A stretch of DNA of 64,000 nucleotides from an uncultured Candidatus Saccharibacteria bacterium. GTDB lineage: Bacteria > Patescibacteriota > WWE3 > UBA101185 > UBA10185. The notes under the pieces were generated by a model that saw only the letters and a list, made by a program, of their open reading frames with translations, did not search any database and had not been told where the DNA came from. Every line of letters begins with the position of its first letter. The first letter of the stretch is position 1. The DNA lies in contig CAZXUJ010000003.1 of the NCBI GenBank assembly GCA_964643995.1, positions 65,927 to 129,926 of the forward strand, in the 5' to 3' direction. Shown here piece by piece: positions 1-50,514 of this stretch. The translations under genes were made by a program, and so were the position numbers.

Positions 1-3000
1 GTGGTGTTTAGTGCTACTTCATCTATGTTACCACTTGCCAGAGTTAATACTTGTCCAGATTCCGAATTCAAGACTGTAGCTCCATTAGCACCTTGTCTTA
101 AAGCATATCCTGTTAATCCTGATTGATCATAGTGTGAAAAATATGCTAAATCGCTTGCTCTCGCATCTATTCTGATACGCCCAATAATTGCAGTTTGATC
201 GGTATCTGCACCTGCATTTATAACTGTATCCCAGCCTGTGCCTATATTTAATGCTGAACTTGTTATGGAGTCACCGTTTCCAGTGGTCTCTGTTAACGCG
301 CCAATGTTTAAGGCTCGCACGTTACCTGTTATTGCACTACCACCAGTGTCAGAGACTGTTGCTGTAAAACTATCTATATCTATGATATTCCATGTCTCAG
401 AAGTGTCGTCAGCATTATTGTCTGTAAAAGTAGGCGAGATATCAACTATATTGCCTGATGCGTCATCTGCCGTGAAGGTGAGTTGTAAACTATCCACGCC
501 ATCGGTGGCTGATGTCCCAGCGTTTATTGTAAATACATCTACTGTAGGTGCTGCGGTTTTTGTAATGTTGGCTCCATCGCCTGCATCTAATGCTATGTTA
601 AAGTCTCCGCCTGAAAGATCTAAATCACCATCAGAAATTAATATATCACCTGCAGGTATAACTAATGCATCGGTGCCATCTGTTCCTCCTGTTGTTCTGA
701 CGTCTGTATCTGCATCGATTGTGAATACGTAATCTCCTGTGGAGTTAGCTCCAAATGTTATTGCTCCGGTTGTTGCTTCTCCGACGTCTATTGTTGCTGA
801 GTTTGCTCCTGCTATATCGCCCCCAGTAACTGTAAAGTCTCCAGCAATAGTTAGGTTCCCTGTATTGGTCAAAGCTAGTTGATCTGCTCCAGCTGAGTTT
901 TCGAATACAGCCAAATTAGTTGTTTGTGTACCATTTCCTTGCACCAGGAGTTGAATTTCATCGTTATCACCATCTATAGCTAGTTTGCTTGATAGTGACG
1001 CTGAACCACCTAGTATGACTTCATCTGTTGTGTTTGTTAAGTAGGCAAGTCCTGTGCCCTGTGTCCACTTGGAAGCACCTGCACCGATTGCTGCATCTAG
1101 GTCATCCAATACATCTTGCACGTTTGCAGCGTTAGAATTCGCAAATTCATCAAAAACCCCTACCAAATATGCTCCTGAATCTGTCGTTCCTGTTGTTTCT
1201 CCCAAAGATGTCGTACCTCCAAATATGATATCAGTTGCAGCAGTTATATTAAGATTATCTCCTGATGCTAGTGTCACATCCCCGCCACTCGCATCTATGC
1301 CTAGATCCCCATTTGTATCAACTGTAAAGCTTGCTTGTGTTCCATCTGCATATGATAGTCTTAACTGTTCTGTCGTTGCTAAAACCTCTAACTTTGCATC
1401 TGGTGTTGTATCCCCAAGACCAAGGTTTCCGTCTAAGTACGATTGCTCTGGCGCCGCTGAGTAGAGTGCATAGTTAGTTGCTCCATCAGTTATGTTATCT
1501 GCAATGTATATTCCAGAGTTGTTTGTTGCATTATATGCACCGGCCACATATATGGCATAGTTGTTATCAGCTAAATCTCCCGCTGTAAAAGTGCCGCCAA
1601 CATGTTGTGTTGTACCTGCAGTACCCAATGACCCTCCCGAAACCGCAGAAATTCCGAAATTGTAGTTTGTCAAATTTGCATTGCTGCTGTTAGTAGAAAG
1701 ATTTACAAATTGCCCTGCTATAGTTGTAAAAGTTGTAGAGCTGGCTAAATTTGTAATGGTTGGAGTATAGCTAACCAAGCCATAGACTCCTGTCTGTTCG
1801 ATAGTAATGCCTCCTGTACCTACAGTATCATTTATTGTTGGGGAACCGACTACATATGTTAATTCTCCATATGTGTTTTGTGTTAATGGTTCAGTATCGG
1901 AGTTTCCTAAATCCAAACCCGATACTTCTATAGTGTTATAGATCCCATAAGCGTTTAATCTTCCTTCACCAGAGCCAGAAGAGCTTAACATTACCGATGG
2001 ATCAAAATCCATGTCAAGATTTTGTATGGTTCTGGCAACTGCTGAGATAGTTCCAAGATTTAAGTCGTTGTCTAAGAATACGTTCGTTGAGTTTTCGTTT
2101 GCATTGTTATCCTGGTTAAATATAGCAATATAATCAGCGTCTTCTGCTGTTGAGCCGTTTACCTCGAGTTTTGTACCCGTAGTAGGAGTAGTTATTCCTA
2201 TTGCTACAGATCCGCTAGCATCAATTACAAATGGAGTTGTATCTGCTGCCACATCATTAACTACAAAACTGTTACCAGCTGTTGTGTTGGTCAAAGTTAG
2301 TAACTCGGCACTTTCGTCAAAGAATAGCGAGGAAGTGGAGTCAGTTCCGCCAACCGCTAAGTCGTCTGTTACCGATGTTAAGTATGTAACAGCGCCGCCA
2401 TCGGTCCACTTGGATCCACCTGCACCACCTGCACAGTTTCCTGACGATAAACAAACTGTACCTGTCTCGTTAGGGAATGTTATGGTTTTGTCTGAGCTTG
2501 TTGGATCGGTAAAGGCTATAAAAGTTTCTATTGAATCGTTGGTGCTACCCTCGACTTCAAAAGCGAAATCCCAGGCTTCACCAACTCTTAACGCGGTTTC
2601 AACAACAGTTCCATCTGCCGAGGTTACGTTTCCTAATTGAATACCATACATAGTATCGGCATCTCCGGTGTTAGCAGATGTAACGTCTATATTGATAGCT
2701 GAGATTGTATCAGCGTCGGTGTCGTTCACTAAGGTGAGGTTTAGATCAAATAATGTACCTGTATCTGAGGTTAGTGACCCAGTTGTACTAATGTTGGAGT
2801 CATCGTCTGTACCTAAAACTATGTCACCGGTGCCTGCTGGGGTTAGCGTAAGCGCAGTGTTTGTTCCGGTGGTTATGGTTCCTGTACCAGTAAAGTCAAG
2901 AGAGTTTACATCTAAAGCAGTACTTCCAATGAGTAGGCTGTTAGAAATTGTTAAATCACCTGAGTTACTCAAGGATAGCAGATCGGATCCAGCAGACGTC

Positions 3001-6000
3001 TCAAAAACCACTAGATTAGCCGTTTGAGTGCCGTTACCTTGTACTAGCAGCTGAATTTCATCATTATCCCCATCAACAGCTAATTTTGAAGATAGGGAAG
3101 CGCTACCTCCAATTATGACTTCGTCAGTTGTATTTGTTAGGTAAATAAGTCCTGTTCCTTGGGTGAATTTTGATGCACCAGCACCAATTGCAGCATCTAA
3201 GTCATCAAGCACATCTTGGACGTTTGCTCCGTTGGAGTTATTGAACTCATCAAAAGTACCGACTAAGTATGCACCCGAATCAGTTGCTCCTGTTGTTTCA
3301 CCAAGTGATGTTGTTCCGCCAAAAATAAGATCCGTGGCAGCTGTTAAGTTGAGATTGTCCCCTGAAGCCAAGGTCACATTTCCTCCTGTTACGTCAATTG
3401 TTAGATCACCGTTTGTATCCACGCTGAATCTGGCGTCTGCGGATCCATCTGCATAGGAAAGCCTTAGTTGTTCAGATGTGGCAAGCACTTCTAACTTGGC
3501 ATCAGGTGAGGTATCCGCTAGACCTATGGCACCACCAAAGTAGTTAACCGCTCCTGTATCTACCTGATATATACCGTAGTCATTAGTTATTGTTCCTGTC
3601 TCAGTTGAATCTGCTATGTATATTCCGTAGGCGTTTGTTATAGCGTTTGTAGCACTCAAATTTCTTATTTCGGAATATACTCCATATGCAGTTGTGATAG
3701 GGCCTGTGGACCCTTTGTCTACCAAAGCATATAAGCCATATGCTGAACTCAGTGTGCCTGTTCCTAGATGGTTAACGAAGGAGTTAAACCCTTTTGCATT
3801 GCCGGTGATATTGCTACTTACACTGGAATCTATAGTTGCATTACCGTCAACTCCTATATATGATGCAGAAGAGTCTGCCCCAGCTACTGCCCACGCTCTA
3901 GAAAATGTGCCATATAATGTACCCGATGTGTCAGAAAATTGTTCACTTATGTTAACCCCTGTTGTTGTACTAACTGAGCCCTGATCACCAAAAGCAGCAT
4001 TGGAGTTAACATCTAAGCTACCTCCCGAAATGGTAAAGGTATCTGTTGTACCAAAGGATATACTTGCGGTATCACTGTTTGTTGCTTCAAAGGTCAAGGT
4101 TGGGTTTGCTGACTGGTCCCCACCAAATAAGAATGTTCCAGCACTTTCATCAATGGAAAATATCGAGGAGGCTAGGGAAGTTCCACCTACAGCAAAGTCA
4201 TTTGTTGCTGTGGTAGGATATATGACACCGCCGCTGAGTGTCCATAAACCACCATTTGTTCCTGTTGCGGCATCGTACACGTCGTTGATAGCATCAACTA
4301 TTCCTTGTGTTAATGAGGCGTTTAAGGCATTATCCGCTAGAGCTAGAGGAAGTGAGGTACTTAATTGTGTGTCATCAAACAGTATGTCATCTGCTGAATT
4401 TAGTGTGATGTCGTTTGTTGCACCGTTTGAGGTTATACCGATTGTGGTACCTGATATAGCTATAGAATCACCGTCGTCTCCCAATGTAACAACTCCGTTT
4501 GCATCAAATGTTCCGTTAGCTGTGAGTGTACCAGTTGCTGTTGCAGTAGAATCGAAAGTGATAGCACTCGTTATGTTCCCTCCGCTAATGGCTATGTCTC
4601 CTGCTATTGTTAGGTTACCACCATTGGTTAGTGATAGTTGGTCAGTCCCAGCAGAATTTTCAAATACAACCAAATTGGTAGTCTGAGTGCCGTTACCTTG
4701 TACTAGCAATTGAATCTCATCATTATCCCCATCAACAGCTAATTTTGAAGATAGGGAAGCGCTACCCCCAATGATGACTTCGTCAGTCGTAGATGTGAGG
4801 TATATTAAACCGGTTCCTTGAGTCCACTTAGAGGCCCCAGAACCTACTGCAGCATCTAAATCGTTTAGGACAGCCTGCACATTTGTGCTGTTTGAGTTTG
4901 CAAATTCATCAAATACCCCAACTAGATATGCTCCAGAATCAGTTGCCCCTGTAGTTTCTCCTAAGGACGTAACCCCACCAAATACTAAATCAACAGCTGA
5001 GGAAAGGTTTAAGTTGTCATTTGTACCAATCGAAACTTCACCATTTCCCGCATCAATTGTTAGATTCCCACCTGCTGGGCCAGTTATGCTTGCCCCATCA
5101 TTTGCATCTACGAAAGTTAAATCTCCAGTGCTCCCAATATTTATGTAGTCAGTTTGTCCTATTCTGGCAGTGCCGTCATCGAGAAATTGTACGAATGCGG
5201 TACCTCCATCCTGAACAATAAAGTCTCCTGTCGAGTCTAAATCAAAAACTAAATTACTTGCTCCTAGATTTGTTTCAGTAGTGGCATCCAGATCTAAGGT
5301 GTCCTGAAGTTCGCCGTAGTCCAATATGTCATCGGCGATTGAAATGTTTACTTCATTCGCTGGAGAAGCACTCAAATTAAAATCGGTAGTAAAATCTAAT
5401 GTATCTACGTTGGCTCCAACAGGCGTATCATTGCTCTCTACATTGATAATTGCACTCGCCGCTCCAGAGTCGGTGGCGCATTCCCATGAGTCATTGGTTT
5501 CGTTCCATTTTAGTACCTCGCCATTAGCACACCCTTGTAACAAGCTAATCCCTCCTGAGAATACTTCAAGACCTGAGCCATTAGTTATGGTCGAGGAAAG
5601 TCCATTCGTAGCTGTTACGGTTTGTATAGTTAATGCTCCTGCAGATAGTGTCAGTCCGTTTCCGGTTATGTCATCTATAGTCTCAGAATTTAAAATTAGG
5701 CTGCTTGCAATTGTTAGGTCTCCAGTGTTGGAAAAATTGAACAAATCAGTTCCAGAAGAGTCCTCAAATGTAACTAAGTCCGCGGATTGAGTACTGTTTC
5801 CCTGTACTAAGAGTTGTATTTCATTCGAGTCGCCATCTACAGCTAGTTTACCTAGATTCGTATTTGAACCTATTGTTACGTTATCCGTTGAGGTTATAAG
5901 GTTTGCTATGTTACTGGTTGTTTGCCATGGCCCTGTGGAACCGGCACTTTGCCAAGATGCATTACCACTTGCATCTGATGTAAGAACGTAGCCATTCGCT

Positions 6001-7153
6001 GCACCAGTAGAAAGTATAAGTCCTGTGGTTGTGACTGTGCCACTGACATCTAGTGTTGAAGTGGGTGTATTAGTCCCCAATCCTAATCTATCAGTGCTGT
6101 CATTCCAGAAGAAGTTAACACTGTCTTGTGCAAAAGTGCTTCCATCCCCAAAATATACTCCGCCGCTTTCTGTTGTTAAACCCGATAAAACATTAATTTC
6201 ATCTGCTGTTGTGGTTACCTCGCTTCCAGCAATTTCGAACGTTCCGTCTAGATTGATAGTTCCTGTAATTTTCAGTGTGCCATTGTATGACAATTCTTCA
6301 GCAAGCCTCACTTCGGTCAAGCCATTATTGTTTACACTTACTACATCTCCTGCTATATCGAGTGAGTTTTCTAGGGTAGTTTCGGTTGTCTCGTCTATCT
6401 GGGCTAATCCTTCCAAACTTGCAACTCCAATTAAGTTGATACTTGGTGTTTGTACGCCTCCTGCTAGGTTAGCTTGCCCTGTAACATCAATTAATCCTGC
6501 TATAGAGACATCTTGACCAACAGTCAAATCTTGTTTTACGATTACATTTTGGAGGAACTCTGATGCTAAATGAAATACCATATCAAATTGTCCTAGTTTG
6601 ACGTTATAACCCAATACATCTGCCGATAATCCGGTTGAATCTACAATTAGGTTTGCTCTTTGAGCTTTTTGTTCGGCATAGCTCAGTACTCTATCTGGTT
6701 GGGAATTTCTCTTAAACCCAAATCCCATAATGGTTAATATGGTTAATGTTACTAACAAGAAAGCAGGTAGTTTGCTTCTTAAGTTTAATGGTTTAGAACT
6801 TGTGGCCTGTATTTTCACTTCTTCGGTAGCTGCCGGAAGTTTAACAGGCTGTTCTATGATTTTGTTTTGAAGGTTGTATTTAACTAATCGTTCTTTCTTG
6901 ATAAGTTTTTCTGTAGTTTCCTTTTGGATTTTCTCGAGACGTAATTCTTCTTTTAACTTTTGAATTTCTTCCAATCTAAAAACTCGGTAACCATTATCTT
7001 GTCTTATGGATGTGATTCGTAAATCTTTTTCATAGTTTCTTAAAGTTGAAGGTGATACTCCCAAAATTTGAGCAGCCTCGGATACATTTAGCATCTTGGA
7101 ATTATCAGCCTGATCTAAAGATTTATTATGTTGGACAGTATTCTTACTCATGA
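1..7153 (-). CDS. Giant membrane-anchored surface protein, 3' end beyond window start (at least 2384 aa). Has an N-terminal MerR-type HTH (about aa 10-55), a coiled/charged linker, one TM helix (LPAFLLVTLTILTIMGFGF) and a huge T/S/G/N/D-rich repetitive ectodomain with three near-identical ~110-aa repeats.
   Basis: Reverse-complement translation from the ATG at 7153-7151 (in-frame TAA 27 nt upstream) reads MSKNTVQHNKSLDQADNSKMLNVSEAAQILGVSPSTLRNYEKDLRITSIRQDNGYRVFRLEEIQKLKEELRL... with no stop down to position 1. The track omits edge-truncated ORFs. All plus-strand ORFs in 1-6500 are low-complexity antisense artefacts sharing repeated motifs. The repeat core DEVIIGGSASLSSKLAVDGDNDEIQLLVQGNGTQT occurs three times (DNA near-identical at ~3035-3135 and ~4695-4795, more diverged at ~960-1030). 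Confidence 0.8.
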
Positions 7154-7348
7154 GGGCAGCTACCTTACAAAAACCCTGTTATTATAGGTTTTTATAATGA
7201 TACAAAGTTTTATAATCAGTGTCAACAGTTTACTCGATCGTAAATTGGTCTTTTTACGCTTTCTCTAAAAGGTTTTGTAAGAAGCACCTCTTGTGCTATA
7301 CCTCCTATATTGTTGACGCTCATACTTATTAAAGGTAAGCTAAATATT

Positions 7349-8119
7349 ATGTATACTCTGCCCAAGAAGTATCTAGTATTTTTGATGCTTTTGACTATTT
7401 CTGCATATTTTGTACCGAGCACTTTTGCTACGACTAGTGTTTCGGTGTCTATTCCTATCGATGACCCTGACGCCACCGCTGGACATATCGTAACCTTAAG
7501 AAACGGCGTATATATTTTGAGCTTTTCAGCTCGTGAACCCGGCGTGTTCGGTGTTATTACAGACGATCCGATAATCTCAATTAATGATAGGTCCTTAACT
7601 AATTTCAAGTATGTTGTAACTTCAGGTGAGGTGAAAGTGAAAGTCTCTGGCATCAATGGGAATATCGAAGAGGGCGACTACCTCAGTGCTTCAAATTTAG
7701 CTGGAATTGGACAAAAGGCTTCTGGCAGTGGTCCAGTAATAGGTGTAGCTCTTGAAGACTATGCTCCTACAGACCCTAACGCTGTTAACGAGATTTCAGC
7801 ATTCCTAAATATTACCTCGGCCTTTGTTGGCGAGCGTCAAGAACAGGATCTCATTGGTTTGCTAAGAGGAGGTCTACAAGTTCCTTTCGTAACGCCGTTA
7901 ACCTCCTTTAGATATATTCTGGCGGCTTTGATAGCAATGGTCTCATTTTTTATTGGCTTTTCATCTTTTGGCAGGATATCTATTAATGGTATAGAAGCTC
8001 TTGGAAGAAACCCTTTGGCAAGTAGGCTTATAAAATCCGCAATAGTACTAAATTTCATATTTACGTTTGGGATTATGGCAGTAGGGTTAGCTATTTCATA
8101 TCTCATTCTGAGCATCTAA
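7349..8119 (+). CDS. Signal-peptide protein (~170-aa beta-rich ectodomain) fused to a C-terminal ATP synthase c-subunit-like helical hairpin. The conserved ion-binding carboxylate is replaced by Phe. An in-frame start further upstream at 7310 is also possible.
   Basis: First gene of the atp operon, directly upstream of atpF. The C-terminal 60 aa MVSFFIGFSSFGRISINGIEALGRNPLASRLIKSAIVLNFIFTFGIMAVGLAISYLILSI align without gaps to the Bacillus PS3/E. coli c-subunit loop and helix 2 ([39 protein letters not shown]), with RNP in place of RQP and F at the Glu/Asp position. N-terminus is MYTLPKKYLVFLMLLTISAYFVPSTFA. RBS AAAGGTAAG lies 10 nt upstream. Confidence 0.6.
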   Translation: MYTLPKKYLVFLMLLTISAYFVPSTFATTSVSVSIPIDDPDATAGHIVTLRNGVYILSFSAREPGVFGVITDDPIISINDRSLTNFKYVVTSGEVKVKVSGINGNIEEGDYLSASNLAGIGQKASGSGPVIGVALEDYAPTDPNAVNEISAFLNITSAFVGERQEQDLIGLLRGGLQVPFVTPLTSFRYILAALIAMVSFFIGFSSFGRISINGIEALGRNPLASRLIKSAIVLNFIFTFGIMAVGLAISYLILSI

Positions 8120-8123
8120 GATT

Positions 8124-8831
8124 ATGTTTACACTTGACTACACATCAATCTTCTTAATACTTCTCAATGCCTTTGTATTTGTTTTATTTATTTTTCTCAT
8201 TGTTGCCATATTTCAGAGTTACAAATCTAGTATTATCACGGAACAGGAGCTAGTGCGCCAGGACGCCTACAAAAAAGCCCTGGCTATTCTGGATAAGGCT
8301 CGTGACGAATCCTTACGTATGCTGAAGAATACTGAGTACTTAACAGATGACACTAAGCAGGTTATGAAAAAAGAATTTGATTCAATTGTTTCTAAGTTAT
8401 CCAATCAGCTTTCCACTGATTTATCCGAAACTATGAAGGAGGAGAGTATCCAAGGTGTTGCGTCTATTAGAAAAGTTTCGAAAGTAATTGAAGATAGTGC
8501 CTTTGACGAACTTAAAAAGTTTGAAGGTGTTTCTGAGTCTATGGAGAAGGAGGCATTGCGTGAGTTAGAAAACTTTCGTCAGGAGTTACATGCGGGAACC
8601 ATTCATAATGAAGAGGCAATGCAAGAACGTCTAAGCAAGGAGTATGAGAATGTACGCCAACGTCTCATTGACTACGAAAACGCTAAGATGTCACAGATAG
8701 ACATAAAGATTAAAACCATTTTTTCTCAAATGACCCGCGAGCTTTTTGATAAGTCTATTGATATTGCCACAAGTGAACAAATGGTTATGGAGGCCCTTTC
8801 TAAAGCAAAAAGAGAGAACATGTTCGTATGA
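8124..8831 (+). CDS. atpF: F0F1 ATP synthase subunit b (long, 235 aa)
   Basis: N-terminal TM helix followed by a long charged coiled-coil. Position in the operon is before delta. Confidence 0.8.
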   Translation: MFTLDYTSIFLILLNAFVFVLFIFLIVAIFQSYKSSIITEQELVRQDAYKKALAILDKARDESLRMLKNTEYLTDDTKQVMKKEFDSIVSKLSNQLSTDLSETMKEESIQGVASIRKVSKVIEDSAFDELKKFEGVSESMEKEALRELENFRQELHAGTIHNEEAMQERLSKEYENVRQRLIDYENAKMSQIDIKIKTIFSQMTRELFDKSIDIATSEQMVMEALSKAKRENMFV

Positions 8832-9286
8832 TAAAAAATGATTTTGCTACCAAAGCTGATCTGGACAGAATTCTTTACTCAATTGATAAATTTAAATTGG
8901 ATTTGTACACCTATAGCTCCAAAGAGTTGGAGCGTTGCTTACACTATCAATATGACATTAAGTTCAATGCTATTGTTCAAGGTGTTCTTGCAAAAAATGA
9001 AATTGATCTTGGTGATGAAAACAAAGTTACAGTAGAAAAGCTATTAAATGCTTTGTCAGTAGATCTCGCTGCAATTGAGATACTAGATATTACTATGTCA
9101 TTTTCTCCCTCAGCAAGATTTCTAAACATTTTACGCAATTGGGCATATGAAAATGTTACTGAGAATATTGTTCTTGATATTCATGTAGATCCTTCGGTTC
9201 TTGGGGGTGCTTCTTTGATTTATCGTGGGCGGTATCTTGACTTGACCATAAGTAATAAATTGAAAAGTTTTAACTTTAGTCTGTAA
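8828..9286 (+). CDS. atpH: F0F1 ATP synthase subunit delta (OSCP)
   Basis: 152 aa. Overlaps atpF and atpA by 4 and 1 nt. Typical position and OSCP-like C-terminus. Confidence 0.75.
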   Translation: MIKNDFATKADLDRILYSIDKFKLDLYTYSSKELERCLHYQYDIKFNAIVQGVLAKNEIDLGDENKVTVEKLLNALSVDLAAIEILDITMSFSPSARFLNILRNWAYENVTENIVLDIHVDPSVLGGASLIYRGRYLDLTISNKLKSFNFSL

Positions 9287-10739
9287 TGAAGGATATATTT
9301 AACGAGATATTACATGCTACTAATGAGATTGGTTATGTAGAGTCGAGCAAGTTCCCTCTGGTGTATGTAAAAGGTTTACCAAATGTACGTCCAACAGAGG
9401 TGGTCTTGTTTGAAACAGGGCAGTTTGGCCAAGTGAAATCACTGGATGTAGACCTCGTAGAGGTTTTAGTTTACTCAAAACAGTCAGTTATAATGGGACT
9501 ACGTGCAGTTCGTACCGGGCATTACTTAGATGTGATGGTTGGTCCTGGTTTGTTAGGTGCTTCTGTTGATGCGTTGGGCGCTCCATTGTATAAAGATGCT
9601 GCTAAAAGTAATATAAACGAGAGCTACAAAATAGAATTGTCGGCTCGTGGCATAGCCGAACGTAAGGAAATTCATGAGCCAATGTTTACTGGAGTGAGCA
9701 TAGTTGACATGATGGTACCTTTGGGTAGAGGCCAAAGAGAGTTGATAATAGGGGACAAGCAAACTGGTAAAACTGCTTTTGCTTTGCAGGTGATGCTTAA
9801 CCAAGCGCGCTTGGGGACAGTGTGTGTATACGGGTGTATAGGAAAGACAAAAGCTGACATTGAGAGTGTTCAGAGATTCATAAACAAAAATAAGATACGT
9901 GACAAATGTGTTGTCGTTGCCTCTGGGGCTGATGACCCCTTGGGTAATATTTACTTAACTCCTTATACTGCTATGAGCGTGGCAGAGTATTTTAGGAATA
10001 GTGGACAGCATGTGCTACTTATTTTGGATGATTTAACAACGCATGCAAAATACTATCGAGAAATTTCACTACTAGGAAATAAATTTCCTGGTAGAGAATC
10101 CTACCCAGGCGATATCTTTTATACCCACTCACGTTTGTTAGAAAGGGCAGGTAACTTTTCTGAAGGATCTATAACTTGTTTACCCCTCGTAACAACAGTG
10201 CAAGGTGATATCTCTGGTTACATTCAAACAAATCTTATGTCAATGACTGACGGACATATATTTTTTGACAAAGATCTCTTTTATAGTGGCCAAAGGCCTG
10301 CTGTAAATTACTACATATCCGTAACAAGAGTTGGGAGACAAACTCAGTCAAAATTACGCTGGTCAATAAACAGAGAGCTAAGTACATTTTTGACCCTATA
10401 TAAACGTACTGAAAATTTTGTACATTTTGGTGCGGAACTTAGCGAAGGAATAAAATCTACCCTATCAATGGGCTCAAAGATCTTTCAGTTTTTTACTCAA
10501 CTTACTAATACAACTCTAGATATTGATTTGCAAATACTGTTTTTTATTATCTTATGGAGTGGCCACTGGAATTCCAAGAATGAAGAAGAATTAGGCAAGG
10601 CTATTCATACGATTTTACAGAAATATTCAGAGGACTCTAAATTTAGATCTCAGATAAGTGAATTAATAAATCAAGACGAAGACGTAAATGCATTGCTTAG
10701 CAAATTTATGAAGGCTTTGCCAACCTTTAGTGCTTACTT

Positions 10740-10743
<4 letters not shown>
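9286..10743 (+). CDS. atpA: F0F1 ATP synthase subunit alpha
   Basis: Walker A GDKQTGKTAFAL. Alpha-subunit-wide similarity by eye. Confidence 0.95.
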
Positions 10744-12963
<2,220 letters not shown>

Positions 12964-12971
12964 GATAATTT

Positions 12972-13214
12972 ATGTCATTCAACCTAACAATTCTAAGCCG
13001 AGATGGCCAAATCTTTAAAGGTGTTTGTTCCACGGTTACATCTTTCAACTCTGTTGGTGAGTTCGATGTATTGGAACATCATGCCAATTTCATTACCATG
13101 ATCAATAAATATGTAGTAGTGGATAAGAGTACTGCCAGTGAAAAGAAATTTTCACTAGAAAGGGGAGTGCTCTCCTCTAAAGGAGATACTGTTGAGGTTT
13201 TTATTCAGGATTAG
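12972..13214 (+). CDS. atpC: F0F1 ATP synthase subunit epsilon (short form, beta-sandwich only)
   Basis: 80 aa immediately after atpD. Lacks the C-terminal helical hairpin. Confidence 0.7.
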   Translation: MSFNLTILSRDGQIFKGVCSTVTSFNSVGEFDVLEHHANFITMINKYVVVDKSTASEKKFSLERGVLSSKGDTVEVFIQD

Positions 13215-13864
13215 TTACTAATAGAGACTCTAACTGAGGCACCCATTGTGGTAGATATGAAGCAGGATTTTATGTATGTTTCAGGTCTTACTTTTTGAGG
13301 TCTATTACTTTTTATCGTATTTAAAATTTCATTGAAATTTTCTACTAGTTTACTATCTTCAAAGCTTTTTTTACCGAATATCACGTGTACTATTGGTGCA
13401 TTAGCTTCATTTCTGATTTCGATTTTTCCTTGTTTCAATGAGTGAACTGCTTTTTCTATGTCGTCGGTGACTGTGCCGGACTTTGGACTTGGCATTACTC
13501 CTGCTGGTCCCAAAATTTTAGCTACCTTAGCTAGTTTAGGCATATATTTAGGTTCAGCAACCAAAACGTCGAAATCAACTTTTGGTCTAATTTCACTCTT
13601 TTCAAGCCTTACTAAGTCATCCTCAGTTAACTCTAAGTCGGCATCCTTGATTTTCTTTGATGCAAAAACCGCGACTCTGACTTGTTTACCAGTTCCATTA
13701 GGTAATGTAGTGCTTACTCTGATACTTTGCTCTGGTTTCTTGTTATCTATTCCAAGATTGAAATGTGCCTCTAGTGTTGCATCAAACTTCGTCTTGCAAT
13801 TCTCTTTAGCAAGTTTTATTGCTTCTTCGATACTATATTGCTTATCTTTTTCTAGTGTATTCAT
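13211..13864 (-). CDS. rplA: 50S ribosomal protein L1
   Basis: 217 aa, L1 family similarity. Follows rplK. Confidence 0.9.
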
Positions 13865-14301
13865 AGTTCTACCTCTACTCCCATAGATCTTGCAGTTCCT
13901 GCAATAACTTTAACGGCTTCGTTTATATCATTTGTGTTCAAATCGGGCATTTTAGCTTTAGCTATGTTTTCTAGTTGGTCTCTTGTTAGTTTACCGACTT
14001 TTTTCTTATTTGGTTCTCCTGAACCACTGGAAATTTTTAGAGCTTTTTTGATTAACCCAGCTGCCAAAGGAGTTTTGGTTATAAATTTGAAAGTTCTATC
14101 CTGATATACGGTAATAACCACTGGTATCACATCGCCGACCATACTTTGGGTTCTTGCATTGAATTCTTTGCAGAAGTCCATCAAAGGCACACCGTGTTGT
14201 CCTAATGCGGGGCCCACTGGAGGTGCGGGAGTAGCCTGCCCGGCAGGTACATTTAATTTTATATATGCTTTAACTTTTTTTTGTTTTTTCTTTTCTGCCA
14301 T
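13861..14301 (-). CDS. rplK: 50S ribosomal protein L11
   Basis: [20 protein letters not shown] motif. Confidence 0.95.
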
Positions 14302-14353
14302 AAAACCTTGTAAAATGCTTTACCTACGGGACATTATAGGTTTGGAAATTCTA

Positions 14354-14965
14354 TCACAAATTTTTAACTTGTGTAAAATCTAACTCAACAGGGGTCTCTC
14401 GTCCAAACACTGATACGAGAACTTTCAGCTTTCCTTGTTCCTCATTTACTTCTTCTACCTTACCTAAAAATTCTGCAAAAGGTCCCTCAGTGATCTTTAC
14501 TGAATCTCCAGTTGTGAACTTTGCCTCGAATTTAGGTTCATCCGATTTTAGGTATCTCACTAGTTCTTGTACTTCTTTCTCAGGTAATGGGGTAGGTGTT
14601 GATCCAGTACCAACAAATCCGGTAACTCCTCTAGTAGATCTAACCAAATGCCATGTTTCGTCACTCAAAATCATTTGAACTAAAACATAGCCGGGGAAAA
14701 GTCTTTCATCTACTTTTCTTTTTTTGCCCTCCGATACTACGATTTTCTGTTTTTGAGGGACTAAAATTTTAAAAAACTTATCAGCATATCCGATTGCATC
14801 TATACGTTGTTTCAAAACCGTGGCGACTTTATTCTCATGTCCTGAATAAGTGTGAACAACAAACCACTTTGCCATAGGGTTTGACTTGGTATTAATGATA
14901 ATAATACTTCCATCATTGATTCCGGTGTCTTTATTGGTTATGTCATTAAAATTATCTTCGCCCAT
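14354..14965 (-). CDS. nusG: Transcription termination/antitermination factor NusG
   Basis: KWFVVHTYSGHENKV NGN domain. KOW motif GxxVxVxxGPF. Confidence 0.9.
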   Translation of the reverse strand: MGEDNFNDITNKDTGINDGSIIIINTKSNPMAKWFVVHTYSGHENKVATVLKQRIDAIGYADKFFKILVPQKQKIVVSEGKKRKVDERLFPGYVLVQMILSDETWHLVRSTRGVTGFVGTGSTPTPLPEKEVQELVRYLKSDEPKFEAKFTTGDSVKITEGPFAEFLGKVEEVNEEQGKLKVLVSVFGRETPVELDFTQVKNL

Positions 14966-15864: not shown

Positions 15865-16180
15865 TACTTTTGCTACAATGAATACTCTTTCTGTGGCATT
15901 TATTCCTTTTAGAACAATATATAGCCTTGGTTGACAGAATGTTTGTAAGTAGTAACATGTAGACAGGTTTGATAGGTTCTATAAAAAGAATCTATAGCGC
16001 CTGATATGTTCGCTGAAACCGATTGACATACTGCTTTTCTGACCAATAAGTTTGGAAAGGGATCACTGAAATTGGGAAACATTGTTTTTCAAAGAAGTGA
16101 ACCCACTTTATTCCAACGGAAACAGTATCGGTGGGAATGGCATATCGGGTGGGTATCATTAATATTGGTTAAATATTTAT

Positions 16181-16234: not shown

Positions 16235-17050
16235 ATGGAACTGTTTCATGGTAACAAACATGCCTTTGAGTTAGATCGTCATATTGTGCATCACTTGTCA
16301 TTGATAGATCGTGATGCATTGGGTGTTCTAGCAATAATACAAATTGGTTCTAATCCTTCTTCCACTAAATACGTCAATTTAAAGCTAGCTTTGTGCTCAA
16401 AACTTGGTATTAAAGCCAATTCTTATCAGTTTTCAGACTCTATGCCTCACGAGGAGCTCTCCTCAGAAATAAGTAAAATTTGTTCTTCCCCAAATACCAG
16501 GAGTGTAATTATCCAATTACCTTTGCCCCAAGGTGTAGCTAAAGAAATTCTTGACCTTATACCTCTAGAAAAAGACGTCGACTCTCTGTCGGATAGTGCC
16601 CAGAAACGTTTTTACTCCGGTGAGTTCACTATGATCCCTCCCGTAGTTCGTGCCGTAAAGTATTTTCTCGAAGCCTGTAGAATGAATGTATCAGGACTTA
16701 CTGTAGATATTGTGGGAAAGGGTTTTCTAGTAGGTGCCCCCTTGGCATATTATCTTGAACACTGTGGCGCTACAGTTACGAGTTATGATGAGCATGACGA
16801 TGTTTCTGAAATAATTTTTAAATCTGATTTAGTAATATCTGCAACAGGTAGGTCAAAACTGCTGCAGGGTGGTAATTTTTACCATGGTACAAGTGTTATT
16901 GATTTTGGATCTTCTGTATTGGAAGGAAAGGTGGTGGGAGATATCAACTTGGATTCCGAAACTAGTCATTTAAAAATTCTTTCTCCATCTCCTGGTGGTT
17001 TAGGTCCATTGGTTGTTAGATTTCTTTTGATTAACCACCTTGGTTTTTAG
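16235..17050 (+). CDS. folD: Bifunctional methylenetetrahydrofolate dehydrogenase / methenyl-THF cyclohydrolase
   Basis: QLPLP motif, GKG..VG.PLA Rossmann segment, SPSPGGLGPLVV C-terminal motif. Confidence 0.9.
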   Translation: MELFHGNKHAFELDRHIVHHLSLIDRDALGVLAIIQIGSNPSSTKYVNLKLALCSKLGIKANSYQFSDSMPHEELSSEISKICSSPNTRSVIIQLPLPQGVAKEILDLIPLEKDVDSLSDSAQKRFYSGEFTMIPPVVRAVKYFLEACRMNVSGLTVDIVGKGFLVGAPLAYYLEHCGATVTSYDEHDDVSEIIFKSDLVISATGRSKLLQGGNFYHGTSVIDFGSSVLEGKVVGDINLDSETSHLKILSPSPGGLGPLVVRFLLINHLGF

Positions 17051-31964: not shown

Positions 31965-32038
31965 TGGCAGGGGTGGCAGGAATCGAACCCGCGCAAATGG
32001 TTTTGGAGACCATTGTACTACCACTATACGACACCCCT
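31965..32038 (-). tRNA. tRNA-Trp (anticodon CCA), CCA end encoded
   Basis: 74-nt cloverleaf folded by hand: acceptor AGGGGTG/CACCCCT, anticodon stem ATGGT/ACCAT with loop CTCCAAA, T-loop TTCGATT. Confidence 0.85.
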
Positions 32039-32115
32039 ATGTATATTGCTCTTGCATTATAGAGGTGGGTGAGATTATGAGCAATATTTACTATAAAAAA
32101 TGAAAAAAGTATTTA

Positions 32116-32191
32116 TGGAGCCCACTGGCAGGATTGAACTGCCGACCTCATCCTTACCATGGATGTGCTCTACCAACTGAGCTAAGTGGGC
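32116..32191 (-). tRNA. tRNA-Thr (anticodon GGT), CCA end encoded
   Basis: 76 nt: acceptor GCCCACT/AGTGGGC, D-stem GCTC/GAGC, anticodon loop ATGGTAA, T-loop TTCAATC. Confidence 0.85.
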
Positions 32192-32286
32192 GAGAGATCA
32201 CTTGTCAAACTTACTAAGTCATCTGGTGGCGATTCGCTTCGCTATCGCACATCAGGTTGTAAGTCTCGCTTTGCTCAACAACAACC

Positions 32287-32372
32287 TGGTGCCGGAAGCA
32301 GGATTCGAACCTGCGAAGGCATAAGCCAACTGATTTACAGTCAGTCCCCTTTGGCCACTTGGGTATTCCGGC
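32287..32372 (-). tRNA. tRNA-Tyr (anticodon GTA), long variable arm, CCA end encoded
   Basis: 86 nt: acceptor GCCGGAA/TTCCGGC, anticodon stem ACTGA/TCAGT with loop CTGTAAA, class II variable arm, T-loop TTCGAAT. Confidence 0.85.
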
Positions 32373-32461
32373 ATGCGCTCGCTAAGTCATCTGGAGGCAA
32401 TTCGTCGCTACGTTCCTATTGCACCCCATCTGACTAAGCTCACGATGTTCGCTAAGTCATC

Positions 32462-32536
32462 TGGAGCCACCTGTGAGATTTGAACTCACGACCTATCCCT
32501 TACAAGAGGATTGCTCTACCCCTGAGCTAAGGTGGC
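32462..32536 (-). tRNA. tRNA-Thr (anticodon TGT), CCA end encoded
   Basis: 75 nt: acceptor GCCACCT/AGGTGGC, anticodon loop CTTGTAA, T-loop TTCAAAT. Confidence 0.85.
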
Positions 32537-49365: not shown

Positions 49366-49527
49366 TACTCGTTTTTGCTTTTTTATCCGCTGTTATGCTA
49401 TCATTTACCAGCATTAGTTTGTATAAAATATATTTAGGTATATACTAAAAATATCTGCGTACCAAATTGATAAAAGTTTTTGGAGGTGTATTCCACATTA
49501 GTGCTGTATAAGCACAATGAACGTAAC

Positions 49528-49725
49528 ATGACACGTGTAAAAGTAAGACACGGCGAAAGTTTGGATCAAGCTTTAAGAAGATTTAATCGCGAAGTTTTAA
49601 AAGCAGGGATTCTAAAAGAACTGAGAAAAAGAGAAAGATATAGAAAACCTAGTGAAATTAAGACTGAAAAGAAAAAAGAGAAAAAGCGAAAAATTTATAT
49701 TGAAAGATTGAAAAGTGGAAGATAA
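49528..49725 (+). CDS. rpsU: 30S ribosomal protein S21
   Basis: [23 protein letters not shown] matches the S21 N-terminus, with a basic tail. The track ORF begins earlier at 49480; ATG at 49528 chosen. Confidence 0.8.
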
Positions 49726-49743
49726 TTCTTCCCCTAGTTTGTC

Positions 49744-50058
49744 GTGATCATAGAAAAATTGCAAAAAGATCTTGTAACTGCACAAAAAGAAAAAGCCGCA
49801 CAAACCGTGTTGGTAATTAGGTATTTGATATCACAGATTCGTAATTATGAGATTGAAATACGCGTAGAAAACCGCTCCTTAACTGATGAGGATGCTATGT
49901 TAGTATTAAAGCGCCAGATAAAGCGTCGCAAGAAAGCTATAGAAGAATTTGAAAAAGGTAATCGACCGGATATTGTGGCTAAAGAAAAAGCTGAACTTTC
50001 TTTGGTTGAGACTTATTATGCTGACTTTGAGAAAGAACTTGGTTTAAGTGTAGAATAG
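49744..50058 (+). CDS. GatB/YqeY domain protein
   Basis: 104 aa with YqeY-like pattern (LVIRYLISQIRNYEIE). Commonly follows rpsU. Confidence 0.65.
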   Translation: MIIEKLQKDLVTAQKEKAAQTVLVIRYLISQIRNYEIEIRVENRSLTDEDAMLVLKRQIKRRKKAIEEFEKGNRPDIVAKEKAELSLVETYYADFEKELGLSVE

Positions 50059-50064
50059 CTGAGC

Positions 50065-50388
50065 ATGAAATTTGATAAACCATTTAACATTTCGGTACGC
50101 ATATCTGATGATACTGAGATCCAAGAACTAAATAAAAAACATTTTGATAGAGATTACCCAACAGATGTGTTGTCCTTTAACATGGATACAACTACTGAAG
50201 AAGGGGAGTTTTACCTCGGAGACATTATTGTGAACAAGGATCAGGCTCAGAGACAATCTCAAGAGTTTGGCAATGACCTTGAGCATGAGATTGCTGATTT
50301 AGTGGCACATGGCATTTTACATCTTTTGGGCGTTCATCACCCTGATGATGATGAAAATTCTATTCATGGCCTAAACAATCAGAAATAA
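50065..50388 (+). CDS. ybeY: rRNA maturation endoribonuclease YbeY (short)
   Basis: HGILHLLGVHH zinc-binding motif. Confidence 0.8.
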   Translation: MKFDKPFNISVRISDDTEIQELNKKHFDRDYPTDVLSFNMDTTTEEGEFYLGDIIVNKDQAQRQSQEFGNDLEHEIADLVAHGILHLLGVHHPDDDENSIHGLNNQK

Positions 50389-50514
50389 GCTTCTCAGGTG
50401 AATTCATAATCTGTTCTTCTACGGGTAGTAGGTTTTTTTCATTAGGGTCGTTTTCAAGATCATACTTTTCTATAATGTTTTCAGTTTGTTGGATAATGTA
50501 TTTATCAGGGTAGT

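What the first reader, a model, noticed from the sequence alone, without database searches (positions are those of the whole stretch)
1..7153. Giant surface protein with an N-terminal MerR-type HTH, invisible to the ORF track
The largest gene in the window (more than 7.1 kb, at least 2384 aa, still open at position 1) is missed by the ORF track because it runs off the edge.

Its first ~55 residues match the MerR-family HTH pattern closely (LNVSEAAQILGVSPSTLRNYEKDLRITSIRQDNGYRVFRLEEIQKL). A lysine-rich coiled segment follows, then a single TM helix, then a very large Thr/Ser/Gly/Asn-rich ectodomain with beta-helix/adhesin-like composition.

A cytoplasmic DNA-binding domain tethered to a giant extracellular protein is an unusual architecture. 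It could be a membrane-tethered one-component regulator, an RsgI/anti-sigma-like arrangement, or a regulatory moonlighting N-terminus on an adhesin.
Basis: partly seen in the sequence, partly recalled or inferred. Interest (0 to 1): 0.7.

Follow-up and report, generated by a model that had tools for sequence, protein, structure and literature searches.

The report
Giant DNA-binding surface fibre protein
The window holds the first half of a 4651-residue membrane protein from an ultra-small (CPR/Patescibacteria) bacterium, with a small MerR-type DNA-binding domain inside the cell joined to a giant phage-tail-fibre-like filament outside; this design is conserved across several CPR lineages and has not been described in any paper I could find.

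Summary
The ORF is open on the minus strand from 7178 to 3. The first ATG is at 7151, not 7153. The window holds 2383 codons, and an identical public protein (P0001) runs to 4651 aa. Residues 20-69 are a bona fide MerR-type winged HTH (Pfam 42.6 bits, cut-off 28.2). The model's best structural matches are the effector-less BldC and RacA. A variable Lys-rich linker, one TM helix (128-146) and an acidic repeat-rich ectodomain follow.

This is not an artefact. Of the 150 best relatives, 88 have HTH followed by TM, and 18 of those are 1000-7185 aa. Small members with two HTHs share the same C-terminal extracellular module. That module resembles a phage tailspike end: a phi29 gp12-type auto-chaperone barrel (replaced by Peptidase_S74 in some homologues), a coiled coil and a tailspike-like beta-sandwich.

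In nine loci from WWE3, Saccharibacteria, Nomurabacteria and other CPR, the gene lies divergent from the same atypical F1-type ATPase operon.

Best reading: a type-II anchored, probably trimeric surface fibre whose cytoplasmic tail binds DNA, that is, a giant transmembrane transcription regulator or DNA tether. DNA binding and its targets are inferred, not shown. Novelty: new variant of a known kind.

The parts
3..7151 (-). Coding sequence, N-terminal 2383 of 4651 codons; runs off the left edge of the window
   Evidence: Open frame 7178..3, first ATG at 7151. 100 % identical to residues 1-2383 of P0001, 4651 aa.
7197..7225 (-). Sigma-70-type promoter-like site: TTGACA (7225-7220), 17-nt spacer, TATCAT (7202-7197)
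   Evidence: 11 of 12 consensus matches. Only two sites in the window reach 11/12. Equivalent promoters sit upstream of 16 homologous genes. Not mapped experimentally.
7165..7197 (-). Leader inverted repeat / 5' hairpin (arms 7197-7187 and 7175-7165, 11-nt loop)
   Evidence: dG -10.8 kcal/mol, z -1.74 (weak on its own). A hairpin at the same place occurs in most of the 14 non-redundant single-HTH leaders. Function unknown: possibly an operator or an mRNA 5' stabiliser.
7162..7166 (-). Shine-Dalgarno-like AAGGT, 11 nt before the ATG
   Evidence: Read directly from the sequence.
7149..7151 (-).
   Evidence: Homologues also have 15-35 residues before the HTH.
6945..7094 (-). Residues 20-69: MerR-type winged helix-turn-helix (beta1-alpha1-alpha2-beta2-beta3)
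   Evidence: Pfam MerR 42.6 bits. AF2 pLDDT 88-95 over residues 20-80. Foldseek: BldC 6ama/6amk E 2.7e-4, RacA 5i44 E 2e-3, then NmlR, SoxR, GlnR, CueR. Profile against PDB: BrlR, BldC, CueR, GlnR, RacA.
6771..6944 (-). Residues 70-127: Lys/Glu-rich helical then low-complexity cytoplasmic linker
   Evidence: The model has a helix to about residue 98, with low confidence after about 80. In the family the linker is 16-145 aa, not conserved, and 18 % K+R.
6714..6770 (-). Residues 128-146: single transmembrane helix (signal anchor, N-in / C-out)
   Evidence: Kyte-Doolittle maximum 2.09. The N-side has more K+R than the C-side in 59 of 88 family members, and the reverse in 6.
3..6713 (-). Residues 147-2383: first half of the acidic, repeat-rich extracellular shaft
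   Evidence: Composition. The full ectodomain has K+R 102 against D+E 588, and 10 Cys in 5 close pairs. No Pfam, NCBIfam or PHROG family is detected.
4521..5120 (-). Shaft repeat module, copy 1 (residues 678-877)
   Evidence: About 80 % aa identity to copies 2 and 3. About 70 % nt identity, so these are old duplications and not an assembly collapse.
2811..3542 (-). Shaft repeat module, copy 2 (residues 1204-1447)
750..1439 (-). Shaft repeat module, copy 3 (residues 1905-2134)
5673..5930 (-). Partial repeat module (residues 408-493)
   Evidence: 45-58 % identity to the C-terminal part of the module.
7349..8119 (+). Divergent neighbour: signal peptide + ectodomain + C-terminal ATP-synthase-c-like hairpin without the ion-binding carboxylate
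   Evidence: Conserved next to the giant gene in 10 loci. A profile of the hairpin hits only c subunits in the PDB, best E 2.9e-5, and the Glu column holds F/S/G/A. Pfam and NCBIfam find nothing.
8124..13214 (+). Rest of the syntenic F1-type ATPase operon (b-like, delta, alpha, gamma, beta, short epsilon)
   Evidence: Beta passes the atpD cut-off (476 against 463). Alpha (430 against 554) and gamma (70 against 194) do not. Synteny across CPR classes.

Best explanation
The gene encodes a type-II (N-in, C-out) membrane protein of a CPR/Patescibacteria bacterium.

Shown:
- A conserved minimal MerR-type winged HTH at the cytoplasmic N-terminus.
- A variable basic linker and one TM helix.
- A very long acidic repeat shaft ending, beyond the window, in a phage-tailspike-like module: a phi29-gp12-type auto-chaperone barrel, a coiled coil and a tailspike-type C-terminal beta-sandwich.
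- The trio HTH(s) + TM + C-terminal module defines a CPR family ranging from 350 to more than 7000 aa. The giants are members in which a shaft has been inserted.

Inferred:
- The ectodomain folds as a trimeric fibre projecting from the cell, which clusters three HTHs at the inner face of the membrane.
- The HTH binds DNA there, so the protein acts as a transmembrane transcription regulator. This is a one-component link between what the fibre tip touches (probably a host-cell or envelope glycan) and gene expression.
- Its own strongly promoted, hairpin-led gene is a likely target.

Whether the signal is transmitted by clustering, tension or proteolysis is unknown.
For: - HTH identity: significant by sequence and by fold.
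- HTH conservation: it is the best-conserved segment among homologues that are only 33-45 % identical. R38, E41, R50, N53, R56 and L66 are invariant (with M1) in the 15-sequence alignment A1. The flanking linker is free to vary in length and sequence.
- Family architecture: 142 of the 150 best representatives carry the HTH, 88 have HTH then TM, and 18 of those are at least 1000 aa. The same layout appears in MAGs of WWE3, Saccharibacteria, Nomurabacteria and in about 30 metagenome contigs.
- Tandem HTHs: many members have two HTHs in tandem, as expected for a domain that must engage two DNA half-sites.
- Shared C-terminal module: small tandem-HTH members share the C-terminal extracellular module with the giants.
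- Phage-like distal end: PDB phi29 gp12 E 1e-4. BFVD gives 68 hits at E <= 1e-3, top 1e-9, annotated as pre-neck appendage barrels, tail fibres and K1-lyase_C proteins. Peptidase_S74 occupies the same position in P0039, and an S74-like SDIRFKENI-type motif, read by eye, in P0009, P0026 and P0097.
- Topology: positive-inside bias, acidic ectodomain, paired cysteines.
- Regulatory signals: consensus promoter plus a leader inverted repeat in nearly all single-HTH loci. The half-site TTAYCAAAT is exact in 5 of 14 leaders against 0.02 expected.
- Precedent: MerR-type HTHs make up about 0.7 % of catalogued transmembrane transcription regulators (PMC10269533).
Against: - No DNA binding, target site or regulon is demonstrated.
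- The window's own leader lacks the TTAYCAAAT motif, and its hairpin is only marginally better than shuffles (z -1.74).
- The motif was derived from the same leaders used to test it, and it is not significant with looser matching.
- Spacing between the inverted arms varies from 4 to 14 nt, which fits an RNA hairpin better than a fixed dimer operator.
- The promoter has a 17-nt spacer, not the 19-20 nt of classical MerR activation.
- Allosteric signalling along more than 4000 residues is implausible, so a structural role for the fibre with a constitutive DNA tether is equally simple.
- Trimerisation is inferred from phage homologues. The monomer model of the middle of the C-terminal module is poor.
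- The in-window shaft matches no known family.
Confidence: 0.45

Rival explanations
1. RacA-like DNA or nucleoid tether rather than a regulator. The HTH binds DNA with little or broad specificity and pins the chromosome (or its own locus, during co-transcriptional, co-translational insertion of a 14-kb gene product) to the membrane at the base of a purely structural attachment fibre.
For: RacA, a chromosome anchor, and BldC, a non-classical multimeric binder, are the best structural matches. There is no effector domain. The basic linker could add non-specific DNA affinity. The gene is positionally conserved like a housekeeping gene. A giant fibre is an unlikely allosteric sensor.
Against: The near-invariant recognition helix and a recurrent leader half-site suggest a specific target. 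Small family members without any shaft look like sensors rather than anchors. The RacA and BldC family models score far below their cut-offs.
Confidence: 0.2
2. The HTH is a protein-binding adaptor that no longer binds DNA, as in RodZ, where a cytoplasmic HTH binds MreB. It would dock the base of the fibre to a cytoplasmic partner, possibly the neighbouring atypical F1-type ATPase.
For: There is precedent for membrane-anchored HTHs used for protein contacts (RodZ, from my own knowledge). Synteny with the ATPase operon is conserved in 9-10 loci across CPR classes. The operon has a carboxylate-less c-like subunit with an ectodomain and no detectable a subunit.
Against: The residues conserved in the family are the canonical MerR DNA-contact signature (TLRR..E....R..NGYR). 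Tandem duplication of the HTH is typical of DNA half-site recognition. Synteny in CPR core regions may be purely historical. The intergenic distance varies from 140 to 1455 bp.
Confidence: 0.13
3. Proteolytically released transcription factor (MYRF-, Notch- or RIP-like). Host contact or fibre maturation triggers cleavage, and the HTH fragment leaves the membrane to regulate genes.
For: Phage intramolecular-chaperone or auto-cleaving domains (S74 or gp12-type) are present in the family. MYRF shows that such a domain can activate a membrane-bound transcription factor (PMC3742443).
Against: Here the chaperone domain is extracellular and near the C-terminus, thousands of residues from the TM helix. 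Its cleavage would release the tip, not the HTH. No conserved juxtamembrane cleavage motif is seen, and the TM helix and linker are not conserved.
Confidence: 0.1
4. Artefact or misassignment: the HTH belongs to a separate upstream ORF (frameshift or chimeric assembly), or the gene is a prophage or tailocin tail-fibre gene rather than a cellular surface protein.
For: The distal module is phage-like. Giant repeat genes are prone to assembly errors.
Against: The frame is uninterrupted from the ATG through the HTH, TM helix and 2237 ectodomain residues. The identical protein is present in an independent record. At least 18 independent giants have the same fusion. Repeats are only about 70 % nt-identical. 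GC3 is native. The chromosomal position is conserved next to ATPase and ribosomal genes in nine lineages. tblastn against 50,697 phage genomes found nothing.
Confidence: 0.02

Closest known systems
Transmembrane transcription regulators (one-component, membrane-integrated: ToxR, CadC, TcpP; survey in PMC10269533)
   Same: A single polypeptide with a cytoplasmic N-terminal DNA-binding domain, one TM helix and an extracytoplasmic C-terminal domain. MerR and MerR_1 domains are listed among such proteins (386 and 350 cases).
   Different: The characterised examples use OmpR-type winged helices and have periplasmic sensors of 100-250 aa. Here the DNA-binding domain is a minimal MerR type and the outside part is a fibre of up to 7000 aa with a phage-tailspike end. 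None of this family has been studied, and regulation is not shown.
MYRF (eukaryotic membrane-bound transcription factor with a phage tailspike intramolecular chaperone domain; PMC3742443)
   Same: A type-II membrane protein that combines a DNA-binding domain, a TM helix and a phage-derived trimerising or auto-cleaving chaperone domain. Trimerisation of a membrane-tethered DNA binder is implied.
   Different: In MYRF the chaperone domain lies between the DNA-binding domain and the TM helix, on the cytoplasmic side, and its cleavage frees the factor. Here it is extracellular, near the C-terminus. The DNA-binding fold differs (Ndt80-like against MerR-like).
RacA (B. subtilis chromosome anchor) and BldC (Streptomyces developmental regulator): effector-less MerR-like DNA binders
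   Same: Best structural matches to the N-terminal domain. Like them, it lacks the effector-binding domain of classical MerR proteins. RacA also continues into a long helix and links DNA to the membrane.
   Different: RacA reaches the membrane indirectly through DivIVA and BldC is soluble. Neither has a TM helix or an ectodomain. Their NCBIfam models score 21.5 (cut-off 265) and 17.4 (cut-off 77).
Phage tailspikes and tail fibres with C-terminal intramolecular chaperones (phi29 gp12 pre-neck appendage; endosialidase-type Peptidase_S74)
   Same: The C-terminal module of the full-length protein matches the gp12 auto-chaperone barrel and tailspike C-terminal beta-sandwiches. Homologues carry Peptidase_S74 at the same position.
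   Different: It is a chromosomal, positionally conserved cellular gene, anchored in the cell membrane by its N-terminus instead of to a virion. A further roughly 300 aa follow the chaperone-like domain. There is no sequence-level match to any of 50,697 phage genomes.
Giant membrane proteins of CPR bacteria (for example Vampirococcus lugosii, PMC8080830)
   Same: Proteins of several thousand residues, membrane-anchored, proposed to form the fibrous surface and mediate host attachment.
   Different: No DNA-binding N-terminus, phage-tailspike end or ATPase synteny is reported for those. The papers I could search mention neither MerR nor an HTH.
Mycoplasma mobile gliding machinery (giant surface proteins Gli349/Gli521 driven by an F1-like ATPase) - recalled from my own knowledge
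   Same: Giant membrane-anchored surface proteins in a wall-less or reduced bacterium together with a divergent F1-type ATPase. The window's alpha and beta also score against the MMOB1660 and MMOB1670 gliding ATPase models, below their cut-offs.
   Different: The window's alpha and beta score higher against genuine atpA and atpD models. No functional link is shown here, only conserved adjacency.

Membership tests
MerR family transcription regulators | N-terminal winged helix-turn-helix matching the MerR profile | tested here: met
   PF00376 42.6 bits (cut-off 28.2) and PF13411 32.5 bits (cut-off 21.6). Fold matches to CueR, SoxR, MtaN, NmlR and BmrR.
MerR family transcription regulators | Long alpha-5 helix forming the antiparallel coiled-coil dimer | tested here: inconclusive
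   A helix at residues 60-98 is predicted, but pLDDT falls to 60-67 after residue 80. This segment is not conserved in the family. No multimer prediction was possible.
MerR family transcription regulators | C-terminal effector (metal, drug or redox) binding domain | tested here: not met
   The HTH is followed by a linker and a TM helix. No effector-domain family is detected.
MerR family transcription regulators | Operator inside a promoter with an over-long (19-20 bp) spacer, often divergent from the target operon | tested here: not met
   The gene's own promoter has a 17-bp spacer. The divergent intergenic region ranges from 140 to 1455 bp among syntenic loci. Other targets could not be tested.
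BldC family (NF033787) | Score above the curated family cut-off; small soluble protein | tested here: not met
   17.4 bits against a cut-off of 77. It is nevertheless the best structural match, so it is BldC-like in fold but not a member.
RacA chromosome-anchoring protein (NF009649) | Score above the curated cut-off; C-terminal DivIVA-binding region | tested here: not met
   21.5 bits against a cut-off of 265. A TM helix takes the place of a DivIVA-binding tail.
Transmembrane transcription regulators (as defined in PMC10269533) | A recognised DNA-binding domain and at least one TM segment in one polypeptide | tested here: met
   MerR domains are included in that survey's list.
Transmembrane transcription regulators (as defined in PMC10269533) | Binds DNA and changes transcription while in the membrane | not testable with these tools
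   Only indirect hints are available: conserved DNA-contact signature, tandem HTH variants and a leader inverted repeat.
   No anti-sigma family appears among Pfam or NCBIfam hits at E <= 1. The N-terminus is a winged HTH.
Phage tailspike/fibre intramolecular chaperones (Peptidase_S74; phi29 gp12 type) | Auto-chaperone domain near the C-terminus of a trimeric fibre | tested here: met
   By structure for the full-length protein: 3suc and 3gqh at E 1e-4, BFVD pre-neck appendage barrels at E 1e-9. By sequence for homologue P0039: PF13884 29.9 bits against a cut-off of 22. This lies outside the window.
Phage tailspike/fibre intramolecular chaperones (Peptidase_S74; phi29 gp12 type) | Trimerisation and auto-cleavage | not testable with these tools
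   Only a monomer model could be made, and its central part is of low confidence.
MYRF-type auto-processed membrane transcription factors | Domain order: DNA-binding domain, chaperone domain, TM helix (chaperone on the DNA-binding side) | tested here: not met
   The order here is HTH, TM helix, shaft, chaperone-like domain. MYRF layout taken from PMC3742443.
F-type ATP synthase subunit c (for the neighbouring gene 7349-8119) | Helical hairpin homologous to subunit c | tested here: met
   A profile of 9 homologues hits only c subunits in the PDB, best E 2.9e-5. It is the only c-like ORF in the window.
F-type ATP synthase subunit c (for the neighbouring gene 7349-8119) | Conserved membrane-embedded Glu/Asp that carries the ion | tested here: not met
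   The column aligned to the Glu of chloroplast subunit c holds F, S, G or A in all nine homologues.

The most novel reading that the evidence does not exclude
The giant HTH-anchored fibre and the adjacent atypical F1-type ATPase are parts of one conserved CPR-specific envelope machine. The ATPase has a c-like ring subunit that lacks the ion-binding carboxylate and carries an extracellular domain, and it has no detectable a subunit. In this reading an ATP-driven motor acts on, or is controlled by, a DNA-tethered host-contact fibre. This would be conceptually like the Mycoplasma mobile gliding apparatus, with a direct line to the chromosome. A milder version of the idea is a bacterial MYRF/Notch-like contact sensor.
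Probability: 0.06. Interest if true: 0.95.

Novelty: new variant of a known kind. Interest (0 to 1): 0.68.

Why it matters
CPR/Patescibacteria make up a large share of bacterial diversity. They live attached to host cells, have tiny genomes with few recognisable regulators, and how they sense and hold their hosts is largely unknown.

This finding describes a conserved, positionally fixed gene family that joins a DNA-binding domain to a phage-tail-fibre-like surface filament. It is a concrete, testable candidate for a direct link between the cell surface and the chromosome in these organisms.

It also extends the known range of transmembrane transcription regulators to proteins of several thousand residues. 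It provides a prokaryotic counterpart to the MYRF design, a membrane-bound DNA binder combined with a phage tailspike chaperone.

Public annotation currently labels such proteins simply as 'MerR family transcriptional regulator', which hides what they are.

The accompanying ATPase observation bears on the open question of why Saccharibacteria keep a dispensable F-type ATPase (PMC10633639).

Tried and rejected
The register was corrected to 7151.
- Self-BLAST of the whole protein returned only the identity hit. Repeats were found by fragment BLAST.
- The word-index homologue search with residues 1-242 found nothing, although the identical protein is in the collection. The exhaustive HMMER search was needed.
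- Exact-protein contig look-ups failed for the b-like gene, P0001 and atpA. The contig could therefore not be extended or named.
- The 15-sequence alignment was too diverse for locus scanning, so a 5-sequence one was used.
- tblastn of the shaft module and of the C-terminal 623 aa against phage genomes gave no match.
- A homologue search with the in-window shaft module gave five unnamed fragments.
- Classical MerR logic, meaning a regulator divergent from its target with an overlapping operator, was rejected. The intergenic length ranges from 140 to 1455 bp and the promoter spacer is 17 bp.
- Leader motif: weakly significant as an 8-mer (9 of 14, 1 of 100 shuffles as good). It is not significant with looser matching, and it is absent from the window's own leader.
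- No regulon signal was found. The six exact motif hits in the window match the chance expectation.
- No second HTH paralogue exists in the window.
- Literature searches for MerR or HTH together with giant CPR proteins, and for F1-like ATPases in Patescibacteria, found nothing relevant.

Full report

Yes, with corrections.

The open frame is two bases off.
- It runs from 7178 to 3. The first ATG is at 7151-7149, and 2383 codons follow without a stop.
- The ORF lister omits it because it runs off the edge.
- An AAGGT lies 11 nt upstream of the ATG. A TTGACA-17-TATCAT promoter-like site (11 of 12 matches) lies at 7225-7197.
- The exhaustive HMMER search recovered a public protein, P0001, of 4651 aa from a 151,597-bp NCBI contig. 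It is identical to the window protein at all 2383 positions. The window therefore holds the first 51 % of the gene.
- GC3 (0.30) is like that of neighbouring genes. The three large shaft repeats are only about 70 % identical at the DNA level. So the gene is native and the repeats are not an assembly collapse.

**2. The N-terminal domain**

- Residues 20-69 score above Pfam's curated cut-offs for MerR (42.6 against 28.2), MerR_1 (32.5 against 21.6) and HTH_17 (30.6 against 27).
- An AlphaFold model built with 15 family sequences is confident over residues 20-80 (pLDDT 88-95). It shows beta1-alpha1-alpha2-beta2-beta3 followed by one long helix.
- Foldseek against the PDB puts BldC (6ama, 6amk; E 2.7e-4; TM-score 0.76-0.81 on the target) and RacA (5i44) first. 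Classical MerR proteins follow: NmlR, SoxR, GlnR, MtaN, CueR, CadR, BmrR and CarH.
- A family profile against PDB sequences gives the same set.
- The domain is therefore a minimal MerR-type winged HTH without the effector domain. It is not a member of the BldC or RacA families by their curated models: 17.4 against a cut-off of 77, and 21.5 against 265.

**3. Linker, membrane anchor, topology**

- After the HTH comes a Lys/Glu-rich helix, then a low-complexity stretch, then one hydrophobic segment at residues 128-146.
- Across 88 family members the 15 residues on the N-side of the TM helix hold more K+R than the C-side in 59 cases, and fewer in 6.
- The cytoplasmic part of P0001 is net basic (25 K+R, 17 D+E). 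The ectodomain is strongly acidic (102 K+R, 588 D+E). Its ten cysteines come in five close pairs.
- This supports an N-in, C-out signal-anchor topology. That is an inference from sequence, not a measurement.

**4. The ectodomain**

- Within the window it is Thr/Gly/Ala/Ser/Asp/Asn-rich. It contains a module of about 200 aa three times at about 80 % identity, plus a partial copy.
- No Pfam, NCBIfam or PHROG family is recognised there. Neither phage genomes nor the large protein database gave informative sequence matches.
- The informative part lies beyond the window. The last 440 aa or so of P0001 are shared with other giants (P0002, P0039, P0009, P0115 and others). They are also shared with small members of 350-950 aa that have two HTHs and a TM helix.
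- In P0039 (Pfam), and by an S74-like motif read by eye in P0009, P0026 and P0097, the first domain of this module is Peptidase_S74. This is the intramolecular chaperone of phage endosialidases and tail fibres (29.9 bits, cut-off 22 in P0039).
- In P0001 the same position holds a different all-beta domain. It is modelled at pLDDT about 88-96.
- That domain matches the phi29 gp12 pre-neck appendage and its auto-chaperone fragment (3suc E 9.6e-5; 3gqh E 2.4e-4).
- In the viral structure library it gives 68 hits at E <= 1e-3. The best (E 1e-9, 26-31 % identity over about 130 residues) are annotated as pre-neck appendage barrels, tail fibres, Mtd N-terminal domain proteins and K1-lyase C-terminal domain proteins.
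- The terminal beta-sandwich (pLDDT 85-95) matches C-terminal domains of tailspikes, depolymerases and a pyocin fibre. It also gives a sub-threshold Pfam hit to K1-lyase_C.
- The ectodomain is thus best described as a phage-tailspike or fibre-like filament. By analogy it is probably trimeric, but trimerisation itself could not be tested.

**5. A family, not a one-off**

- Of the 150 best representatives, 142 carry the HTH, 88 have HTH followed by a TM helix, and 18 of those are 1000-7185 aa.
- The HTH is the most conserved segment. The consensus is LSVSEAAKLLGVSPSTLRRLE..GKI.S.R..NGYR.F. R38, E41, R50, N53, R56 and L66 are invariant (with M1) in the 15-sequence alignment A1. The linker varies from 16 to 145 aa.
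- Genome and metagenome scans found the same layout in MAGs labelled candidate division WWE3, Saccharibacteria, Nomurabacteria and 'Patescibacteria group', and in about 30 metagenome contigs. Most of those ORFs run off the contig end, as expected for giant genes.
- One homologue is annotated by NCBI as 'MerR family DNA-binding transcriptional regulator, partial'.
- The conserved core is HTH (one or two copies) + TM helix + C-terminal extracellular module. The giants are members with a long shaft between the TM helix and that module.

**6. Genomic context**

- All-against-all comparison of flanking ORFs showed that the gene is divergently adjacent to the same operon in the window and in eight other loci: L001, L002, L003, L004, L009, L020, L023 and L025 (partly also L016). 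That operon is followed by rplA-rplK-nusG.
- The operon encodes F1-type subunits. Beta passes the atpD cut-off (476 against 463). Alpha (430 against 554) and gamma (70 against 194) are divergent, delta is marginal, and epsilon is short. No a or b subunit is recognised.
- Its first gene (7349-8119) has a signal peptide, an ectodomain of about 170 aa and a C-terminal hairpin.
- A profile of nine homologues of that hairpin hits only ATP synthase c subunits in the PDB (E 2.9e-5). The column aligned with the essential ion-binding Glu holds F, S, G or A in all nine. It is the only c-like ORF in the window.
- The window's atpD is only 51-55 % identical to those of all syntenic loci. The source organism is therefore a separate CPR lineage that I could not name.
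- The intergenic distance to the giant gene ranges from 140 to 1455 bp. A MerR-style overlapping divergent operator is therefore unlikely.

**7. Regulatory signals of the gene itself**

- Sixteen homologous loci and the window have a near-consensus promoter (9-11 of 12 matches). In most it is followed by a 40-60-nt leader that begins with an inverted repeat.
- Stem sequences and loop lengths (4-14 nt) differ among loci, which favours an RNA hairpin.
- The left arm, however, often reads TTAYCAAAT. It is exact in 5 of 14 non-redundant leaders at +7 to +19 after the -10, against 0.02 expected from background.
- Three caveats apply. The motif was derived from these same sequences. It is only weakly significant in a shuffle test. 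The window's own leader lacks it and folds only modestly better than shuffles (z -1.74).
- Tandem-HTH loci carry a different inverted repeat, GAACAC-N17-GTGTTC, at the same place.
- I regard an autoregulatory operator and a 5' stabilising hairpin as both open.

**8. How it most likely works**

Shown: the domain identities, their order, the family conservation, the phage-like distal module and the synteny.

Inferred:
- The N-terminus stays in the cytoplasm.
- The ectodomain forms a trimeric fibre, clustering three HTHs under the membrane.
- The HTH binds DNA there.

Four observations favour a transmembrane transcription regulator or DNA coupler:
- The canonical MerR DNA-contact signature is conserved.
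- Variants with duplicated HTHs exist.
- Minimal members look like ordinary one-component membrane regulators.
- MerR domains are already catalogued among such regulators (PMC10269533).

A RacA-like tether, a RodZ-like protein adaptor and a proteolytically released factor remain possible. For the last, the chaperone domain is on the wrong side of the membrane compared with MYRF (PMC3742443).

**9. Comparison with what is known, and novelty**

- Giant membrane proteins of CPR bacteria are known and are thought to mediate attachment (PMC8080830).
- Transmembrane transcription regulators are known.
- Phage-type intramolecular chaperones in a membrane-bound transcription factor are known from MYRF.
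- I found no paper describing their combination, its conservation across CPR, or the ATPase synteny.
- I therefore rate it a new variant of a known kind, with moderately high interest. The function of the HTH is still an inference.

Noticed in passing
window 7349-13214 (+): The F1-type ATPase operon has unusual membrane parts. Its first gene fuses a signal peptide and an ectodomain of about 170 aa to a c-subunit-like hairpin that lacks the ion-binding carboxylate. No a subunit is detectable, the b-like subunit matches no family, alpha and gamma score below their curated cut-offs, and epsilon is only 80 aa. The arrangement is conserved in nine CPR loci.
   Followed up: partly
window 7151-14965; L001-L004, L009, L020, L023, L025: Gene order is conserved across CPR classes: HTH-giant gene, divergent ATPase operon, then convergent rplA-rplK-nusG. 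The intergenic gap next to the giant gene varies from 140 to 1455 bp. The longer gaps contain no ORF conserved in three or more loci.
   Followed up: partly
L039, L040, L042, L044, L048, L059 (leaders of tandem-HTH genes): The tandem-HTH subfamily has a different conserved inverted repeat right after its promoter: GAACAC, about 17 nt (AUUAUWUAUACAAA-like), then GUGUUC. With near-fixed spacing it looks more like a protein operator than a hairpin.
   Followed up: no
window 15931-16005 (+): This is the only other 11/12 promoter-like site in the window (TTGACA-16-TAACAT). It is followed by a strong hairpin (-15.8 kcal/mol in 45 nt) and no ORF of at least 80 aa within about 130 nt (the next listed ORF starts at 16235). 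There is no Rfam match. It could be a small RNA or a long structured leader of the 16235 gene.
   Followed up: no
window 49366-50514: An ORF-free gap of about 1.1 kb has no Rfam hit. It contains a promoter-like site at 50027 (+), followed by an exact reverse-complement copy of the leader half-site (ATTTGATAA at 50070).
   Followed up: no
window 7222-7656 (-): A 144-aa TTG ORF sits upstream of the giant gene on the same strand. It overlaps the conserved c-like gene on the opposite strand and the giant gene's promoter, and it matches no family. It is probably not a gene.
   Followed up: partly
window 31965-32536 (-): A tRNA cluster Thr(TGT)-Tyr-Thr(GGT)-Trp. This is ordinary, and it confirms a chromosomal core region.
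   Followed up: no
P0001 residues 541-558 (window 5478-5531) and homologues P0007, P0039: A recurrent short motif with a cysteine pair, GCANGEVLKW....W.CATDSG, is shared by distant giants and repeated many times in P0039. It may mark a small disulfide-bonded insert in the shaft.
   Followed up: no
tool behaviour: The word-index protein search missed the identical 4651-aa protein even though it is in the collection. Exact-product contig look-ups also failed for proteins that the cluster table lists on the 151,597-bp contig. As a result the source organism could not be named.
   Followed up: yes
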